Below are positions 42,698 through 59,161 of a stretch of 64,000 bases of DNA, piece by piece. The notes beneath the pieces were generated by a model. It was not told the DNA's origin and did no database searches. It saw nothing but the letters and a program-made list of their open reading frames with translations. Every line of letters begins with the position of its first letter. The first letter of the stretch is position 1. The position numbers and the translations under genes were made by a program. This DNA comes from a virus. Location: positions 13,719 to 77,718 of the IMG/VR virus record IMGVR_UViG_3300045988_144119; one strand, written 5' to 3'.

Positions 42698-43132
42698 TTA
42701 CTCTAATTGTTTATCGAAAATCTTAATACATTCAAATAAATAGTGCGCAATTATAGGTTGTACTGCATTGCCTATACACTCCGTTCTGTCCACCCTATCG
42801 GGAAGTTCATTAGACTTTCCAGCAAATCGGGGTGAGGGTATTGACTGTCTTGTTCTCCATCCCGGATATACTCGTGTATATTGCCCCGATAGGTAGGGCT
42901 CCCGAAATATCGATTCTTGGATGCTCCTCTTGCCGTTGACTTCACAGGAGTAGGCAATACAATATAATCGCTCCCGACCCTGTTGTATACCAAAGTCGGT
43001 GCCTGATAAACATTGCCATTCTGCATCATACCCGATTTCGGAAAGGTCGCATAAGACCCGTTCAAATCCCCGAATAAGGAGCATTGGACTGTTTTCAATG
43101 ATGATGTATTTAGGTCTAACTTCCCGTATAAC
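42698..43132 (-). pseudogene. DNA C5-cytosine methyltransferase remnant (N-terminally truncated, internally frameshifted)
   Basis: One frame reads RPKYIIIENSP...GYDAEWQCLSGTDFGIQQGRERLYCIAY...IGNAVQPIIAHYL (motifs VI, VIII, X). A second frame (43098-42772) reads LPTPVKSTARG...LMNFPIGWTE. Motifs I-IV are absent. Confidence 0.7.
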
Positions 43133-44006
43133 TCATTAGATTTTTATTAACACTATTTTCATGGCATATTTCTCTAAACATTAATTGATATTTTGGTTTT
43201 ATTAAATAATAAGCAAAAGTTTCAATTAAATCAACATCATCGTTTGTTCTACCTTGTATTTTGAAATGATTGATCCCTAAATTTAAATAAGTATTAATCA
43301 TATCAATTGTTACAACTTGTGGAGCATTTAATATTTCATAAAGATTACCATTACCGCAATAGCTTTCATGAATACATTTAAACGTAATATCATTGTTATT
43401 TATATTTAAATTAGATATATGTTCATAATGATTTTTTCTTGATTTACAATTGTTAGGACAAATTGTATTAACAATTATTTCAAGTTTATTACGAGTATGT
43501 TCTGGAAATAATGATATAGTTTTCCAGTCATTTATCATATATTCACTTAATACTATACGTTTATATTGATCTGTCTTTTTTATAATAGCTTCAAAATCAA
43601 AGCAAGCGGTAGTTGATAATATAAACTGTCCTCTTCTTATACCTTGATTTTCTAGCCATTTTTCAATATATAAATTAGAAAGACAAAAATAAGTATTTTT
43701 CTTATCAAATGTTGTTATAATTCGTGATGCATAATCATCTGGAAAGTATTGTTCGTTAGCAAATAGATTACTCATAATGATAGTTGGACATAAATTATGT
43801 TCTTTACAAAAATTTTCAACTTCTTTTTCATTGTTGAAATGTCCACTATTTCGTCCGCCATTTGCTACTCCACCATTAGATCCATAAAAAGATGATATAA
43901 TAAAGTTATCACGAAAAATATATGGATAATTTTCATATAATAAAATAGTTTGTTTTACTATATGAAATTTTTCAAATAGTCCTGGAAGATTAAAATAAAC
44001 TTTCAT
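43116..44006 (-). CDS. orphan, strongly AT-rich ORF (296 aa), weak U32 / TIM-barrel Fe-S enzyme-like hints
   Basis: Uninterrupted ORF 40 nt downstream of the tRNA-like element. GINHFKIQGR resembles the KIEGR motif of the peptidase U32 family. Two Cys pairs (CPNNC, CIHESYC). Composition is clearly AT-richer than the flanks. Confidence 0.5.
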   Translation of the reverse strand: MKVYFNLPGLFEKFHIVKQTILLYENYPYIFRDNFIISSFYGSNGGVANGGRNSGHFNNEKEVENFCKEHNLCPTIIMSNLFANEQYFPDDYASRIITTFDKKNTYFCLSNLYIEKWLENQGIRRGQFILSTTACFDFEAIIKKTDQYKRIVLSEYMINDWKTISLFPEHTRNKLEIIVNTICPNNCKSRKNHYEHISNLNINNNDITFKCIHESYCGNGNLYEILNAPQVVTIDMINTYLNLGINHFKIQGRTNDDVDLIETFAYYLIKPKYQLMFREICHENSVNKNLMSYTGS

Positions 44007-44046
44007 AAATTTTTGATAATTTTGAAGTTAATTTTATAAAAAGTAA

Positions 44047-44117
44047 TGGTAATAGGAGGGAGATTCGAACTCCCTTCTCTCTTAAGAGACTTCACTACCA
44101 CGCAAAGTTTTCCTATT
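44047..44117 (-). ncRNA. tRNA-like element lacking an anticodon arm, with encoded ACCA end
   Basis: Acceptor AATAGGA/TCCTATT (7 bp), D arm ACTT-TGCGTGGTAGTG-AAGT, T arm GGGAG-TTCGAAT-CTCCC, discriminator A plus CCA. Only TCTCTTAAGAGA stands where the 17-nt anticodon arm should be. Confidence 0.6.
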
Positions 44118-44259
44118 CCAGCTTTTTACGACATTAGCTTAGCCGTTGACTTATCGTATTACGCTGTAACACGAGTATAGTCTGTTACGAAAGATTTGTC
44201 ATTTCTGACGTCTATTGACCTATTCATTTTCATCTTCGCTGTCAAAACCAGATAGCCCC
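44118..44259 (-). ncRNA. tmRNA 5'-piece-like RNA (coding-piece candidate)
   Basis: Starts GGGGCTATCTGGTTTTGACAGCG (compare E. coli GGGGCTGATTCTGGATTCGACGGG). Contains AATAGAC followed by a 16-codon ORF ending TAA (44209-44159). The 3' boundary is not defined. Confidence 0.55.
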
Positions 44260-44346
44260 TTCGTTGTTTCTTTGTTATCGTAGTGAAACGCCACGGTCAG
44301 AAAGTTCTATGTCCTGATTTTACAAGATACTTTGCAAAGTAATTTG

Positions 44347-44398
44347 TGGAGCTAGAGGGAGTCGAACCCTCGTCCAAACGATTCATCTAATGACCTAA
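44347..44398 (-). ncRNA. tmRNA 3'-piece-like RNA (acceptor-piece candidate) or ssrA-type attP core
   Basis: GGAC GAGGG TTCGACT CCCTC TAGCTCC A; the acceptor strand is complementary to GGGGCTA at 44259-44253, including a G3-U pair. Confidence 0.6.
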
Positions 44399-44720
44399 CA
44401 GTCAATATAGTAGTATATAGTTAAATCAATAACTATATACTTAAATATAATAAACTGTAGGTAAGTATAATAAAAATAATAATCGGAAATATACTTATTA
44501 AATATAAAGGCAGATGCTTACTCTATATTTAAAGATTTACTTCTATATCTAATAATAGCGTCAATTATTACTTTACTATAGGCTCTAGGCTCGCTTACTC
44601 TACAGTTTTAAATAGGCTTTGATTGCATGTATAGTATAGCAAGTGCTCACGCAGAACGGACTCGATTGAACTATAGGCATAAAGCTCTCTATACATATAC
44701 AATTTGATTTTGTGTACATC

Positions 44721-45513: not shown

Positions 45514-46803
45514 CTAAACCTCCTTAAGCTCTCCATTGACTAGCATATACCATGTATCAGCCTTAACCTTTTTCCCGTCAACTTCAAATGCCTTAACCTC
45601 TTTAATCGGGTAGGTATCACCGTTCCATTCTCCACGCTCTGCGAGGACTATCCAGCAACCTATAGCTCCCTTAGCCTTACACCCGTATCCGGCAGCAAGA
45701 GCAATGCTATCCTTGCCTGTGGCTGATGCTGCACCTTGGTTGCCTGTGGCTGATGCTGCACCTCGGTAGCCTGTGGCTGATGCTGCACCTTGGTAGCCTG
45801 TGGCTGATGCTGCACCTTGGTTGCCTGTGGCTGATGCTGCACCTCGGTAGCCTGTGGCTGATGCTGCACCTTGGTAGCCTGTGGCTGATGCTGCACCTTG
45901 GTTGCCTGTGGCTGATGCTGCACCTCGGTAGCCTGTGGCTGATGCTGCACCTTGGTAGCCTGTGGCTGATGCTGCACCTTGGTTGCCTGTGGCTGATGCT
46001 GCACCTCGGTAGCCTGTGGCTGATGCTGCACCTTGGTAGCCTGTGGCTGATGCTGCACCTTGGTCACCTGTGGCTGACTTACCCTTCTTCCACTTGCATT
46101 TTTCAAACGTAAACTTAACGGCTGCGTCTACAATACTCTTAATACTTAGTTCCGCTCCTATGTGGATTTTTGAGCAAGCAATTTTCGTATCATCCGTATC
46201 TACGTCCATATCGCCAGTTCCCTCAACCTCGTGAAACTTATTCATACCAACTTCGGCAGGTGGATAGTAACTGAACACGTCCAACGGATGGAGGCAGAAG
46301 TGAAATCCGTTACCGCAAGCTCTTATATCGCCTGTTTCTTCATAGTCCTTACCTTCTTTGTATTGGAAATCCCTACATGTCAAATCGGGGTTAAAACCTT
46401 TGTAGCCTTTGATTTTGACAAATTCCTTTGGTAAGGTAACGTTATCCGGCAGGTTTGCCCTAAGTACCATGTACGCCATGTAGCCGGCGTCAAATCCGGC
46501 TATCCCGGTGCCAATGGCAGTTAGGAGGAATTCCTTTTCCAGATGCTCGTTAGCGTAATTCCCGAAGTTCCCTAAAAATACGATCAGCTCTTCTTCAGTT
46601 ACTTTCTGCATATCCTTGTCCAGCGTAGGGATAGCATAGGACTGACCTTGTATCCCTTTTGCTTTCCCCATAATTGCACCAAACTTCTCAACTGCCAATC
46701 TAGCTGCACCTCCGGCGTGATTGCCGTTCATGTTGCTTCCAAAAACGAATATTTGATTTTCTTTCAGTTCCTGAATATTCTCAGGCGTTAATTCTCTTTT
46801 CAT
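45514..46803 (-). CDS. three-part protein: A1S_2505-like Rossmann domain, DUF7666-like domain, nonapeptide-repeat domain
   Basis: [20 protein letters not shown]...[11 protein letters not shown]; then [21 protein letters not shown]...[18 protein letters not shown]; then about 13 x G(Y/N)(Q/R)GAASAT. Family names are from memory. Confidence 0.6.
45716..46077. repeat. tandem 27-bp coding repeat (13.4 copies) with 81-bp higher-order periodicity
   Basis: Unit cctgtggctgatgctgcaccttggttg; variants ttggttg / tcggtag / ttggtag cycle with period 3. Confidence 0.9.
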
Positions 46804-58018: not shown

Positions 58019-58123
58019 TCCGAAAGACAGGAATCGAACCTGCTTCTTGTGGGGTAATGAGACCTACATAAAGAATATGATTATTATTAAATTACCACAT
58101 GCATTCCATAATGCTACTTTCGG
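58019..58123 (-). ncRNA. tRNA-like element with a 42-nt segment in place of the 7-nt anticodon loop
   Basis: Acceptor CCGAAAG/CTTTCGG, D arm GCAT-TATGGA-ATGC, stem TGTGG/CCACA enclosing 42 nt, variable AGAA, T arm GCAGG-TTCGATT-CCTGT, discriminator A. Confidence 0.55.
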
Positions 58124-58707: not shown

Positions 58708-59161
58708 GTCATTTAATCATAAGTTTGTTCCCCTCAACAGCTTAAACCGGTTGTTACCCCGAATCTTACGGGAGGGGATATATTAGACCTTTCAGCGATA
58801 CTTGTGCCTAACCAAGCATACTTCTACGCTAAAGACAAATTGGCGTGCTGAAAGTAAATTTCATTTCAACTTCGTGGCTTTACCACCATCAGACATTTAC
58901 AACCATTCGACCGTTATCGTCTTATCTTCGGTTGCTATCGGTGTCAATTCCGTTCCACTTGCACCCACCACTATCTACCATCACTGGCTTCGCTTCTGTG
59001 CCTGCGCAGAAATCATATATAATAATTGTACGGTTTTACCCATACATTATTTCTATTGTATAAATAAATATTTCAAAGAACTATTTTTTTGCTCCCTGCT
59101 CAGTTATCGCTACTGAATTCCGTTCATTCCGTCAACAGGGATAAATGTCTTTAAAGCTTAG

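What the first reader, a model, noticed from the sequence alone, without database searches (positions are those of the whole stretch)
44047..44117. Anticodon-less tRNA-like element with an encoded ACCA end, abutting the tmRNA-like 5' piece
The minus strand reads AATAGGA AA ACTT TGCGTGGTAGTG AAGT C TCTTAAGAGAGAA GGGAG TTCGAAT CTCCC TCCTATT A CCA. It has a perfect 7-bp acceptor stem, a D arm with a GG-containing loop and a canonical T arm. Only a 4-5 bp mini-hairpin (TCTCT TAAG AGAGA) sits where a 17-nt anticodon arm belongs, so it cannot decode. It starts directly after ...AAAAAGCTGG of the upstream RNA and ends 40 nt before the AT-rich ORF 43116-44006. Possible roles are all inference. It could be an RNase P / RNase Z processing handle that defines the 3' end of the upstream RNA (mascRNA-like logic). 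It could be a decoy or substrate for tRNA-targeting or tRNA-modifying enzymes. It could be a decayed tRNA; the loop contains CTTAAGA, reminiscent of a Leu-UAA loop with a shifted stem.
Basis: seen in the sequence. Interest (0 to 1): 0.65.

Follow-up and report, generated by a model that had tools for sequence, protein, structure and literature searches.

The report
tRNA-shaped end-piece of phage tmRNA
A 71-base RNA gene shaped like a tRNA but unable to read codons sits directly after a phage-borne two-piece tmRNA gene; every related phage tmRNA examined has one, and it most likely serves as the cutting mark that frees the tmRNA from a longer transcript.

Summary
Window 44117..44047 (-) folds into a 7-bp acceptor stem, a D arm, a 4-bp/4-nt stub where the anticodon arm belongs, a canonical T arm and an encoded ACCA end. 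ARAGORN and the Rfam tRNA model both reject it.

It begins on the base after the coding piece of a genuine circularly permuted tmRNA (RF04321, 44406..44159). That tmRNA belongs to a clade found in crAss-like phages (Suoliviridae). In about 160 loci found through the tmRNA 3' end, and in about 107 tmRNAs found through an independent 5' anchor, a tRNA-shaped element always follows the coding piece.

About 30 versions exist. They range from a near-canonical tRNA-Ile to a bare acceptor plus T-arm minihelix. Only the 12-bp acceptor/T stack, the T loop, A73 and C74 are kept, and compensatory changes are abundant.

Phages 97-100% identical in the flanks can carry unrelated versions, so the element behaves as a swappable cassette.

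My best reading is a tRNA-derived RNase P/RNase Z processing handle (mascRNA-like logic). This is inferred, not shown. It is a new variant of a known kind and of moderate interest.

The parts
44047..44117 (-). tRNA-shaped, non-decoding element (71 nt including the encoded CCA)
   Evidence: Sequence; MFE fold; homologues at the same position in related phages.
44111..44117 (-). Acceptor stem, 5' strand AAUAGGA
   Evidence: Pairs 7/7 with 44057..44051. All 7 positions covary across 25 versions.
44089..44108 (-). D arm: ACUU / AAGU stem with loop UGCGUGGUAGUG containing GG
   Evidence: Fold. G10:C25 in the nearest homologues is A10:U25 here, a compensatory change.
44077..44088 (-). Stub hairpin CUCU-UAAG-AGAG in place of the anticodon arm
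   Evidence: Fold. It aligns to the 5-bp/6-nt-loop arm of the L004/L095 class with a 7-nt deletion.
44058..44074 (-). T arm GGGAG UUCGAAU CUCCC
   Evidence: Fold. The loop is nearly invariant and 4 of 5 stem pairs covary.
44047..44057 (-). Acceptor 3' strand UCCUAUU, discriminator A (44050), encoded CCA (44049..44047)
   Evidence: A73 and C74 are invariant in 25 versions. Most other versions have CAA or CUA instead of CCA.
44118..44259 (-). tmRNA coding piece: GGGGCUA acceptor 5' strand, tag frame 44200..44159 (DKSFVTDYTRVTA*), and the conserved 3' end ...CGGCUAAGCUAAUGUCGUAAAAAGCUGG
   Evidence: Rfam RF04321 alignment; sequence; tags of relatives.
44260..44346 (-). Intervening segment of the permuted tmRNA gene, removed on maturation
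   Evidence: Rfam alignment insert. In relatives this segment can hold a tRNA-His gene or an endonuclease gene.
44347..44406 (-). tmRNA acceptor piece: P2 strand, T arm, acceptor 3' strand UAGCUCC, discriminator A; G3:U70 formed with the coding piece
   Evidence: Rfam RF04321; sequence.
43116..44006 (-). Next ORF on the same strand, 40 nt downstream (AT-rich, weak U32-like). It is a neighbour, not a conserved partner.
   Evidence: Homologues occur without a tmRNA or tRNA-like neighbour. No terminator-like site lies between it and the element.

Best explanation
The element is a tRNA-derived RNA module that can no longer decode. It is an obligatory companion of a phage-type two-piece (permuted) tmRNA gene.

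The tmRNA acceptor piece, the intervening segment, the coding piece, the tRNA-shaped module and the next protein gene lie on one strand with no terminator between them. They are probably transcribed together.

Host RNase P would cut at the 5' end of the module, as it does for any tRNA. This creates the exact 3' end of the tmRNA coding piece (...AAAAAGCUGG). RNase Z, or exonucleases in the CCA-encoding window version, would trim the 3' side and separate the module from the downstream mRNA.

Shown: the structure, its position, its universality in the clade, and selection on the acceptor/T-arm stack only. Inferred: co-transcription, the two cleavages, and that 3' end formation is the selected function.
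For: (1) Position. The element starts on the base after the tmRNA coding piece.

(2) Universality. All 162 loci retrieved through the conserved tmRNA 3' end have a tRNA-shaped element next to it. In a sample anchored independently in the acceptor piece, 99 tmRNAs plus 8 in a shifted register have one and none lacks it. This holds even where a 44-81 nt extra domain is inserted, or where the 3' motif itself covaries.

(3) What is conserved is what RNase P, RNase Z and CCA-adding enzymes need. Across 25 distinct versions the 12-bp acceptor/T stack is 98% paired. Of its 12 pairs, 11 show double (compensatory) changes. The covariation score is 0.94 against 0.23 in shuffles (0/500 as high) and at most 0.24 in slid controls. 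The T loop, A73 and C74 are (nearly) invariant.

(4) What decoding needs is not conserved. Bodies range from an 11-nt linker with no D or anticodon arm, through 4-, 5-, 6- and 9-nt loops, to a ~50-nt insertion. Only one class passes the Rfam tRNA cut-off clearly, at 52.8 bits.

(5) No terminator-like site lies between the tmRNA, the element and the next same-strand ORF in the window or in two crAss-like loci.

(6) tRNA-type excision is already the accepted maturation route of permuted tmRNA (review PMC3985003). Some relatives carry a real tRNA-His inside the intervening segment.

(7) The module moved together with the tmRNA from AT-rich crAss-like phages into this temperate-type Bacteroides phage. 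Since then it has kept perfect stems through compensatory changes.
Against: No RNA-level data exist: neither transcript ends nor RNase P cleavage were observed.

A mere cutting mark does not obviously explain two findings. Small stems inside the body are kept by compensatory changes within classes (CUUAG/CUAAG to CUUGG/CCAAG; GUA/UAC to GCA/UGC). Nearly identical phages carry unrelated versions.

The base at -1 is G in most versions, not the U favoured by bacterial RNase P (my own knowledge).

In the window the leader can pair with the trailer, which could hinder cleavage.
Confidence: 0.5

Rival explanations
1. After release, or in addition to marking the cut, the small tRNA-shaped RNA acts in trans. 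It could be a decoy or competitor for a factor that binds the acceptor/T-arm half of tRNAs or tmRNA (SmpB, EF-Tu, RNase P, CCA-adding enzyme, tRNA-targeting toxins). It could also be a chargeable but non-decoding tRNA. Its hypervariable body would then reflect conflict-driven diversification.
For: Phages 97-100% identical over +-900 nt differ completely (18-49% identity) exactly within the element. Element classes are scattered over the tmRNA tree. Body stems covary within classes. A TLD-only RNA is reported to inhibit tmRNA, perhaps by titrating SmpB (PMC4131195). The window version encodes its own CCA.
Against: No G3:U70 in any of the 25 versions, so there is no alanine or tmRNA-like identity. 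Some versions have no body at all (an 11-nt linker), so any partner could read only the minihelix. Titrating SmpB would also harm the phage's own tmRNA. The cassette pattern can arise from recombination in the strongly conserved flanks without any selection.
Confidence: 0.22
2. The element is not cut off. It stays as a tRNA-like 3' cap on the tmRNA coding piece, in the manner of plant-virus TLS. There it would protect the piece from 3' exonucleases or recruit the CCA-adding enzyme or EF-Tu.
For: Zero spacing to the conserved, probably pseudoknotted, 3' end of the coding piece. Encoded CCA in the window. Leader-trailer pairing in the MFE fold.
Against: A normal two-stranded 7-bp acceptor stacked on a T arm is a standard RNase P substrate. 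No anti-determinant is visible. Spacing is not fixed: 6-7 nt in the L008 class and 44-81 nt of extra domain in others. Most versions lack an encoded CCA and run on into the next gene.
Confidence: 0.1
3. It is a decaying tRNA pseudogene with no function, left next to the tmRNA by chance.
For: The anticodon arm is lost or deformed in most versions. ARAGORN and Rfam do not call it.
Against: It is present after every tmRNA of the clade. The acceptor and T stems are 98% paired with 11/12 covarying pairs. The window version has perfect stems with compensatory changes relative to its nearest homologues. It was transferred horizontally together with the tmRNA.
Confidence: 0.06
4. It is an unconventional decoding tRNA (for example a suppressor in recoded crAss-like phages), or it is the tRNA-gene fragment of a phage attachment site.
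For: Some versions look almost canonical: the L008 class, Ile-GAU, scores 52.8 bits on the Rfam tRNA model. Unrecognised suppressors have been proposed for recoded Crassvirales phages, with the lack of a suppressor tRNA noted in a reassigned Suoliviridae phage (bioRxiv 10.64898/2026.08.21.746148). An integrase gene lies 2.2 kb away.
Against: The window version has a 4-nt loop and cannot present an anticodon. Several versions have no arm at all. For the attP reading: both acceptor strands are present, the element comes from crAss-like phages, the integrase is not adjacent, and an A1:U72 AT-rich acceptor is unlike host tRNAs.
Confidence: 0.04

Closest known systems
mascRNA / MEN-beta tRNA-like elements at the 3' ends of the long non-coding RNAs MALAT1 and NEAT1 (Wilusz et al. 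2008; my own knowledge)
   Same: A cloverleaf-like RNA with a reduced, non-decoding anticodon arm lies directly 3' of a functional non-coding RNA. RNase P cleavage at its 5' end makes the 3' end of the upstream RNA, and the small RNA ends in CCA.
   Different: Those are eukaryotic nuclear RNAs and there is no sequence relation: Rfam found no match in this region to any family other than tmRNA. Here the upstream RNA is a tmRNA piece in a phage, CCA is gene-encoded in the window version, the body is hypervariable between strains, and cleavage is unproven.
tRNA punctuation of polycistronic transcripts, and t-elements of plant mitochondria (my own knowledge)
   Same: tRNA or tRNA-like folds are used purely as RNase P / RNase Z cutting marks between other genes. 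Degenerate versions keep the acceptor and T arms.
   Different: Those are organellar systems. Here the fold marks one specific RNA (the tmRNA) in phage genomes. These genomes also use self-cleaving ribozymes and introns nearby (Hatchet, group I).
Maturation of circularly permuted (two-piece) tmRNA in Alpha-/Betaproteobacteria and cyanobacteria
   Same: Same gene form and same tRNA-processing logic for separating the acceptor and coding pieces (RF04321; PMC3985003; PMC11915505).
   Different: The papers I searched and read do not describe a dedicated tRNA-shaped module at the 3' end of the coding piece. The Rfam model stops at the tag stop codon. Annotation pipelines show the module either as an overlapping 'tRNA-Leu' (cr60_1) or not at all.
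TLD-only mini-tmRNA of mycobacteriophage DS6A, and CDS-less organellar tmRNAs
   Same: A phage-borne RNA that is little more than an acceptor stem plus T arm. A molecule of this kind is reported to inhibit tmRNA, perhaps by titrating SmpB (PMC4131195; PMC11915505).
   Different: Those are tmRNA homologues with alanine identity. The window element has U3:A70, a true D stem and no tmRNA-clan score. It also accompanies an intact tmRNA rather than replacing one.

Membership tests
Canonical tRNA (Rfam RF00005 / ARAGORN) | 7-bp acceptor stem, discriminator base, and a T arm of 5 bp with a 7-nt UUCRANY loop | tested here: met
   Stems are 7/7 and 5/5 paired; the loop is UUCGAAU.
Canonical tRNA (Rfam RF00005 / ARAGORN) | D arm with G18 G19 | tested here: met
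   The stem is kept by a compensatory G:C to A:U change relative to homologues.
Canonical tRNA (Rfam RF00005 / ARAGORN) | 5-bp anticodon stem with a 7-nt loop (U33, three-base anticodon, purine 37) | tested here: not met
   A 4-bp stem with the 4-nt loop UAAG. There is a 7-nt deletion relative to the nearest homologues, which themselves have 6-nt loops.
Canonical tRNA (Rfam RF00005 / ARAGORN) | Detected by standard tRNA finders at their thresholds | tested here: not met
   ARAGORN finds nothing at default or down to ps80. No RF00005 hit at E<=10 in a 901-nt search. tRNAscan-SE was not available.
tmRNA tRNA-like domain alone (TLD-only mini-tmRNA) | G3:U70 alanine identity pair in the acceptor stem | tested here: not met
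   U3:A70 in the window. Position 3:70 is UA, AU or CG in all 25 versions and never GU.
tmRNA tRNA-like domain alone (TLD-only mini-tmRNA) | Similarity to tmRNA-clan covariance models; no D stem | tested here: not met
   No clan CL00001 hit on the element. A D stem is present.
tRNA-like 3'-end processing elements (mascRNA type, t-elements) | tRNA-like fold with a reduced anticodon arm lying immediately 3' of another functional RNA | tested here: met
   The arrangement is conserved in all tmRNAs of the clade.
tRNA-like 3'-end processing elements (mascRNA type, t-elements) | RNase P cleavage at its 5' end creates the mature 3' end of the upstream RNA; the small RNA is released | not testable with these tools
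   Needs RNA end mapping or an in vitro RNase P assay.
tRNA-like 3'-end processing elements (mascRNA type, t-elements) | Homology to the curated mascRNA-menRNA family | tested here: not met
   The search of all 4227 Rfam families over this region at E<=10 gave no match other than tmRNA. The relation is one of logic, not descent.
Viral 3' tRNA-like structures (TYMV/BMV/TMV type) | Acceptor arm built through a pseudoknot at the extreme 3' end of the viral RNA; aminoacylatable | tested here: not met
   The acceptor is an ordinary helix of 5' and 3' strands. The element is internal to the DNA transcription unit. Charging is not testable here.
Phage attP copy of a host tRNA gene 3' part | Only the 3' part of a host tRNA gene, next to the integrase, identical to the host gene | tested here: inconclusive
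   Both acceptor strands are present. The element derives from crAss-like phages. The integrase is 2.2 kb away.

The most novel reading that the evidence does not exclude
The tRNA-shaped module is more than a cutting mark. It would be a hypervariable, recombination-swapped cassette kept diverse by conflict. One possibility is phage against host: a tRNA or tmRNA mimic that engages or evades a factor reading the acceptor/T-arm half. Another is phage against phage: escape from homing endonucleases that target the tmRNA/tRNA region, as SegB does in the T4 tRNA cluster (my own knowledge). On this reading the roughly 30 coexisting versions, with exact boundaries at the RNA's own ends, are functional alleles.
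Probability: 0.15. Interest if true: 0.8.

Novelty: new variant of a known kind. Interest (0 to 1): 0.55.

Why it matters
If the reading is right, a widespread group of gut phages (crAss-like Suoliviridae, and at least one temperate Bacteroides phage that acquired the cassette) matures its own ribosome-rescue RNA with a dedicated tRNA mimic. This would be a bacterial-virus counterpart of the MALAT1/mascRNA arrangement.

It would explain overlapping or missing tRNA and tmRNA annotations in these genomes. It would give a rule for the true 3' end of phage two-piece tmRNAs. It would also provide a natural series of about 30 minimised tRNA shapes that show what the host processing enzymes really require.

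The sharp cassette-like variability is unexplained. It could point to a conflict-driven role for tRNA mimics.

Tried and rejected
- **Standard detectors.** ARAGORN at default and relaxed thresholds, and Rfam at E<=10, gave no call for the element. At ps70 ARAGORN returned only junk calls.
- **Link to the downstream AT-rich ORF as a possible U32-type RNA hydroxylase partner.** Rejected. The Pfam hit is below the cut-off, and NCBIfam and PHROGs give nothing. Homologues occur in a crAss-size contig (L182) with a distant ordinary tRNA-Leu and no tmRNA. They also occur in a related temperate-type phage contig (L185), where the ORF follows a C5 methyltransferase gene fragment and no tmRNA is present.
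- **Idea that the AT-rich cassette was inserted into the C5 methyltransferase gene.** Not supported. Sister contigs L028 and L075 carry an extra ~520 bp there, and the gene is still fragmented.
- **TLD-only mini-tmRNA reading.** Rejected on G3:U70.
- **Leu-UAA origin.** Rejected on alignment to the nearest homologues.
- **Other copies of the window version.** It occurs only in L028 and L075, the same phage at 99% identity, so covariation cannot be tested within the version itself.
- **Literature.** Searches for a prior description found none, but the library is incomplete.
- **Tools left unused as uninformative here.** Structure prediction, the representative-protein search and the metagenome scan.

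Full report
**1. What is at the site**

On the minus strand, window 44117..44047 reads AATAGGA AA ACTT TGCGTGGTAGTG AAGT CTCT TAAG AGAG AA GGGAG TTCGAAT CTCCC TCCTATT A CCA. The unconstrained minimum-free-energy fold is exactly this shape. It has a 7-bp acceptor stem, a D arm, a 4-bp stem with a 4-nt loop where the 17-nt anticodon arm belongs, a 5-bp T stem with a 7-nt loop, a discriminator A and an encoded CCA. The energy is -22.3 kcal/mol, with z = -2.5 against dinucleotide shuffles.

ARAGORN calls nothing in the window and nothing at thresholds relaxed to ps80. Rfam gives no tRNA-clan match at E<=10. A custom scan for a perfect 7-bp acceptor plus 5-bp T stem plus TTCRANY loop finds three sites in 64 kb against 0.22 expected.

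**2. What lies upstream**

Rfam places a circularly permuted tmRNA (RF04321, 58.3 bits, cut-off 47) at 44406..44159. Read from the sequence, its parts are:
- The acceptor piece, 44406..44347, with the T arm, the strand UAGCUCC and the discriminator A.
- An 87-nt intervening segment.
- The coding piece, starting at GGGGCUA (44259). Its acceptor strand forms G3:U70 with the acceptor piece.

The tag frame at 44200..44159 encodes DKSFVTDYTRVTA*. The coding piece runs on to ...CGGCUAAGCUAAUGUCGUAAAAAGCUGG at 44118, and the tRNA-shaped element starts on the next base.

**3. Where the cassette comes from**

The tmRNA part matches crAss-like phages of the family Suoliviridae (cr125_1, cr114_1, cr6_1, cr52_1, cr53_1, cr60_1, cr113_1, cr56_1). 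The flanks of the window match temperate-type Bacteroides and Porphyromonas phages. The window carries a tyrosine integrase gene. The cassette has 26-32% G+C in a ~42% background. Two IMG/VR contigs, L028 and L075, are 99% identical to the window here. They are the only other carriers of this version of the element.

**4. The element is a constant companion of this tmRNA**

In cr60_1 the same conserved 3' end is followed by an 80-nt 'tRNA-Leu' that overlaps the tmRNA annotation. In cr125_1 it is followed by AGUGAGA-UAGGAAAUAAG-GAGGG UUCGAUU CCCUC-CCUCACU-A, which is an acceptor stem and T arm only.

Pattern scans with the 3' end gave 162 loci, and in each a tRNA-shaped element follows. That set is selected through the 3' end, so I repeated the survey with an anchor in the acceptor piece (ATTGACTGTTAGGTC). 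Among tmRNAs with enough sequence, 99 have the element by a strict parse. The 8 'failures' all have it in a shifted register. It is still present in two kinds of variant. In one, a 44-81 nt extra domain is inserted before it (L186, L188, L190, L211). In the other, the 3' motif itself has covaried (GGCUCGCCAUUGUCG, L209).

**5. What is conserved and what is not**

About 30 distinct versions exist:
- (A) 43-48 nt: acceptor stem, an 11-16 nt linker and T arm.
- (B) 56-60 nt: one small middle hairpin. Some split the 12-bp stack 5+7 instead of 7+5.
- (C) The window type.
- (D) 72-80 nt cloverleaf-sized forms whose 'anticodon' arms have 5-, 6- or 9-nt loops, plus a near-canonical Ile-GAU form.
- (E) 123 nt with a ~50-nt insertion.

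Only the L015/L008 class clearly passes the Rfam tRNA cut-off, at 52.8 bits. Two others are marginal.

On 25 distinct acceptor+T-arm minihelices, 98% of cells pair and 11 of 12 pairs show changes on both sides. The covariation score is 0.94 against 0.23 in shuffles (0/500 as high) and at most 0.24 with slid partners. G53, C56, A58, the 61-62 positions, A73 and C74 are invariant. The caveat is that my parser picked the best-pairing register. However, the 5' strand is fixed by the tmRNA end in most sequences.

The trailer N73-C-A/U-A and a frequent A1 are shared with ordinary tRNA genes of the same phages. This argues for descent from tRNA genes and for processing by the same enzymes.

**6. The window version**

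It aligns with the L004/L095/L019 class, sharing the D arm AAGCUUUGCGUGGUAGUGAAGC. The 5-bp/6-nt-loop arm of that class is shortened by a 7-nt deletion in the window. Compensatory changes occur in the acceptor stem, the T stem and the D stem, where G10:C25 becomes A:U. The structure has therefore been under selection in the lineage leading to the window, although decoding was already impossible in its relatives.

**7. Cassette behaviour (unexpected)**

Phage pairs that are 97-100% identical over +-900 nt carry unrelated versions. Identity drops to 18-49% exactly between the tmRNA end and the discriminator. Examples are L016/L019, L021/L056, L076/L156 and L022/L059. Six groups with an identical last 120 nt of tmRNA are followed by more than one version; in four of them the versions belong to different classes. 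Classes are scattered over a tree of the coding piece.

Both flanks are strongly conserved across the family, so short-patch recombination within them could produce these sharp borders without any special mechanism. Whether selection favours new versions is open.

**8. Mechanism**

The tmRNA, the element and the next ORF lie on one strand with a 40-nt gap. No terminator-like site lies between them in the window or in two crAss-like loci. Permuted tmRNA precursors are thought to be matured by RNase P and RNase Z (PMC3985003). Some relatives carry a real tRNA-His in the intervening segment, and cr6_1 carries a group I intron with an endonuclease gene.

The neighbourhood in crAss-like phages is an array of structured RNAs: RAGATH-9, RAGATH-7-assoc, RAGATH-20 and Hatchet ribozymes. 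These genomes therefore appear to rely on RNA-level processing.

The best-supported explanation is that the element is a tRNA-derived handle. RNase P cuts at its 5' end and thereby makes the 3' end of the coding piece. The 3' side is trimmed by RNase Z, or by exonucleases where CCA is encoded, which also frees the downstream mRNA. All cleavage steps are inferred.

**9. Rivals**

- A trans-acting role of the released RNA (decoy or chargeable mimic) is compatible with the hypervariability and with covarying body stems. It lacks any identified partner. A TLD-only SmpB-titrating role (PMC4131195) is disfavoured by the absence of G3:U70.
- A retained 3' cap is disfavoured because the fold is a normal RNase P substrate and the spacing varies.
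- A neutral pseudogene is disfavoured by universality and covariation.
- Decoding is excluded for the window version.
- An attachment-site fragment is unlikely.

**10. Comparison and novelty**

The logic matches mascRNA/MALAT1 and organellar tRNA punctuation, but there is no homology to those families. The papers I could search do not describe a tRNA-shaped terminal module of phage two-piece tmRNAs. Annotation pipelines show it as an overlapping tRNA or omit it. I rate it a new variant of a known kind, with moderate interest.

Noticed in passing
window 58019-58123 (-): A second tRNA-shaped RNA in the same phage. It matches the Rfam tRNA model at 46.4 bits but has about 41 nt where the 7-nt anticodon loop belongs, including an extra stem GGUAAU/AUUACC, and ends in an ACAA trailer. 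ARAGORN and the whole-window gathering scan miss it. It is almost invariant in 20 IMG/VR contigs.
   Followed up: partly
window 44118-44406 (-): The permuted tmRNA is intact (G3:U70, T arm), but ARAGORN at default settings misses it. Its tag DKSFVTDYTRVTA* ends in VTA, unlike the LVA/IAA/LAA endings of crAss-like relatives.
   Followed up: partly
loci L001, L002, L003, L015, L019, L027 (crAss-like phages): The tmRNA lies within arrays of structured RNAs. RAGATH-9 or RAGATH-7-assoc sits directly upstream, and RAGATH-20, several Hatchet ribozymes and group I introns lie nearby. In cr6_1 a group I intron (L003 1538-1797) interrupts the tmRNA gene, and an endonuclease gene (1745-2347, opposite strand) overlaps it.
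   Followed up: no
loci L040 and L045: A canonical tRNA-His(GUG) gene lies inside the tmRNA intervening segment, between the acceptor piece and the coding piece.
   Followed up: no
loci L004, L025, L054, L095, L019, L211 (element body): The 6-nt 'anticodon' loops keep U at position 2 and UUA at positions 4-6, while position 3 takes all four bases (AUAUUA, GUAUUA, GUUUUA, GUCUUA, AUGUUA, AUUUUA). This resembles a truncated xU-NUU-A loop and is unexplained.
   Followed up: no
window 43116-44006 (-): AT-rich 296-aa ORF with only a sub-threshold Peptidase_U32 match. It belongs to a family of about 56 unnamed proteins found in crAss-size contigs. In L185 it follows a C5 DNA methyltransferase gene fragment.
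   Followed up: partly
window ~43130 and 42698-43129 (-): The C5 cytosine methyltransferase gene is only a C-terminal remnant, beginning near the ENV-type motif (IIIENSP). The window lacks about 520 bp that sister contigs L028 and L075 carry between the AT-rich ORF and this remnant.
   Followed up: partly
window 44035-44130 (-): The leader GUAAAAAG..UGG just before the element can pair with the trailer CCA..CUUUUUA just after it, extending the acceptor stem in the MFE fold of the longer transcript. Only one sequence version exists, so this cannot be tested by covariation.
   Followed up: no
window 59093-59141 (-): DUF2693-FD RNA (RF02926, 61.3 bits against a cut-off of 44.5), a small structured RNA.
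   Followed up: no
window 45514-46803 (-): A DUF7666 protein with a long collagen-like GAASATG(Y/N)(Q/R) repeat tract. The repeat copy number differs between the window and L028/L075.
   Followed up: no
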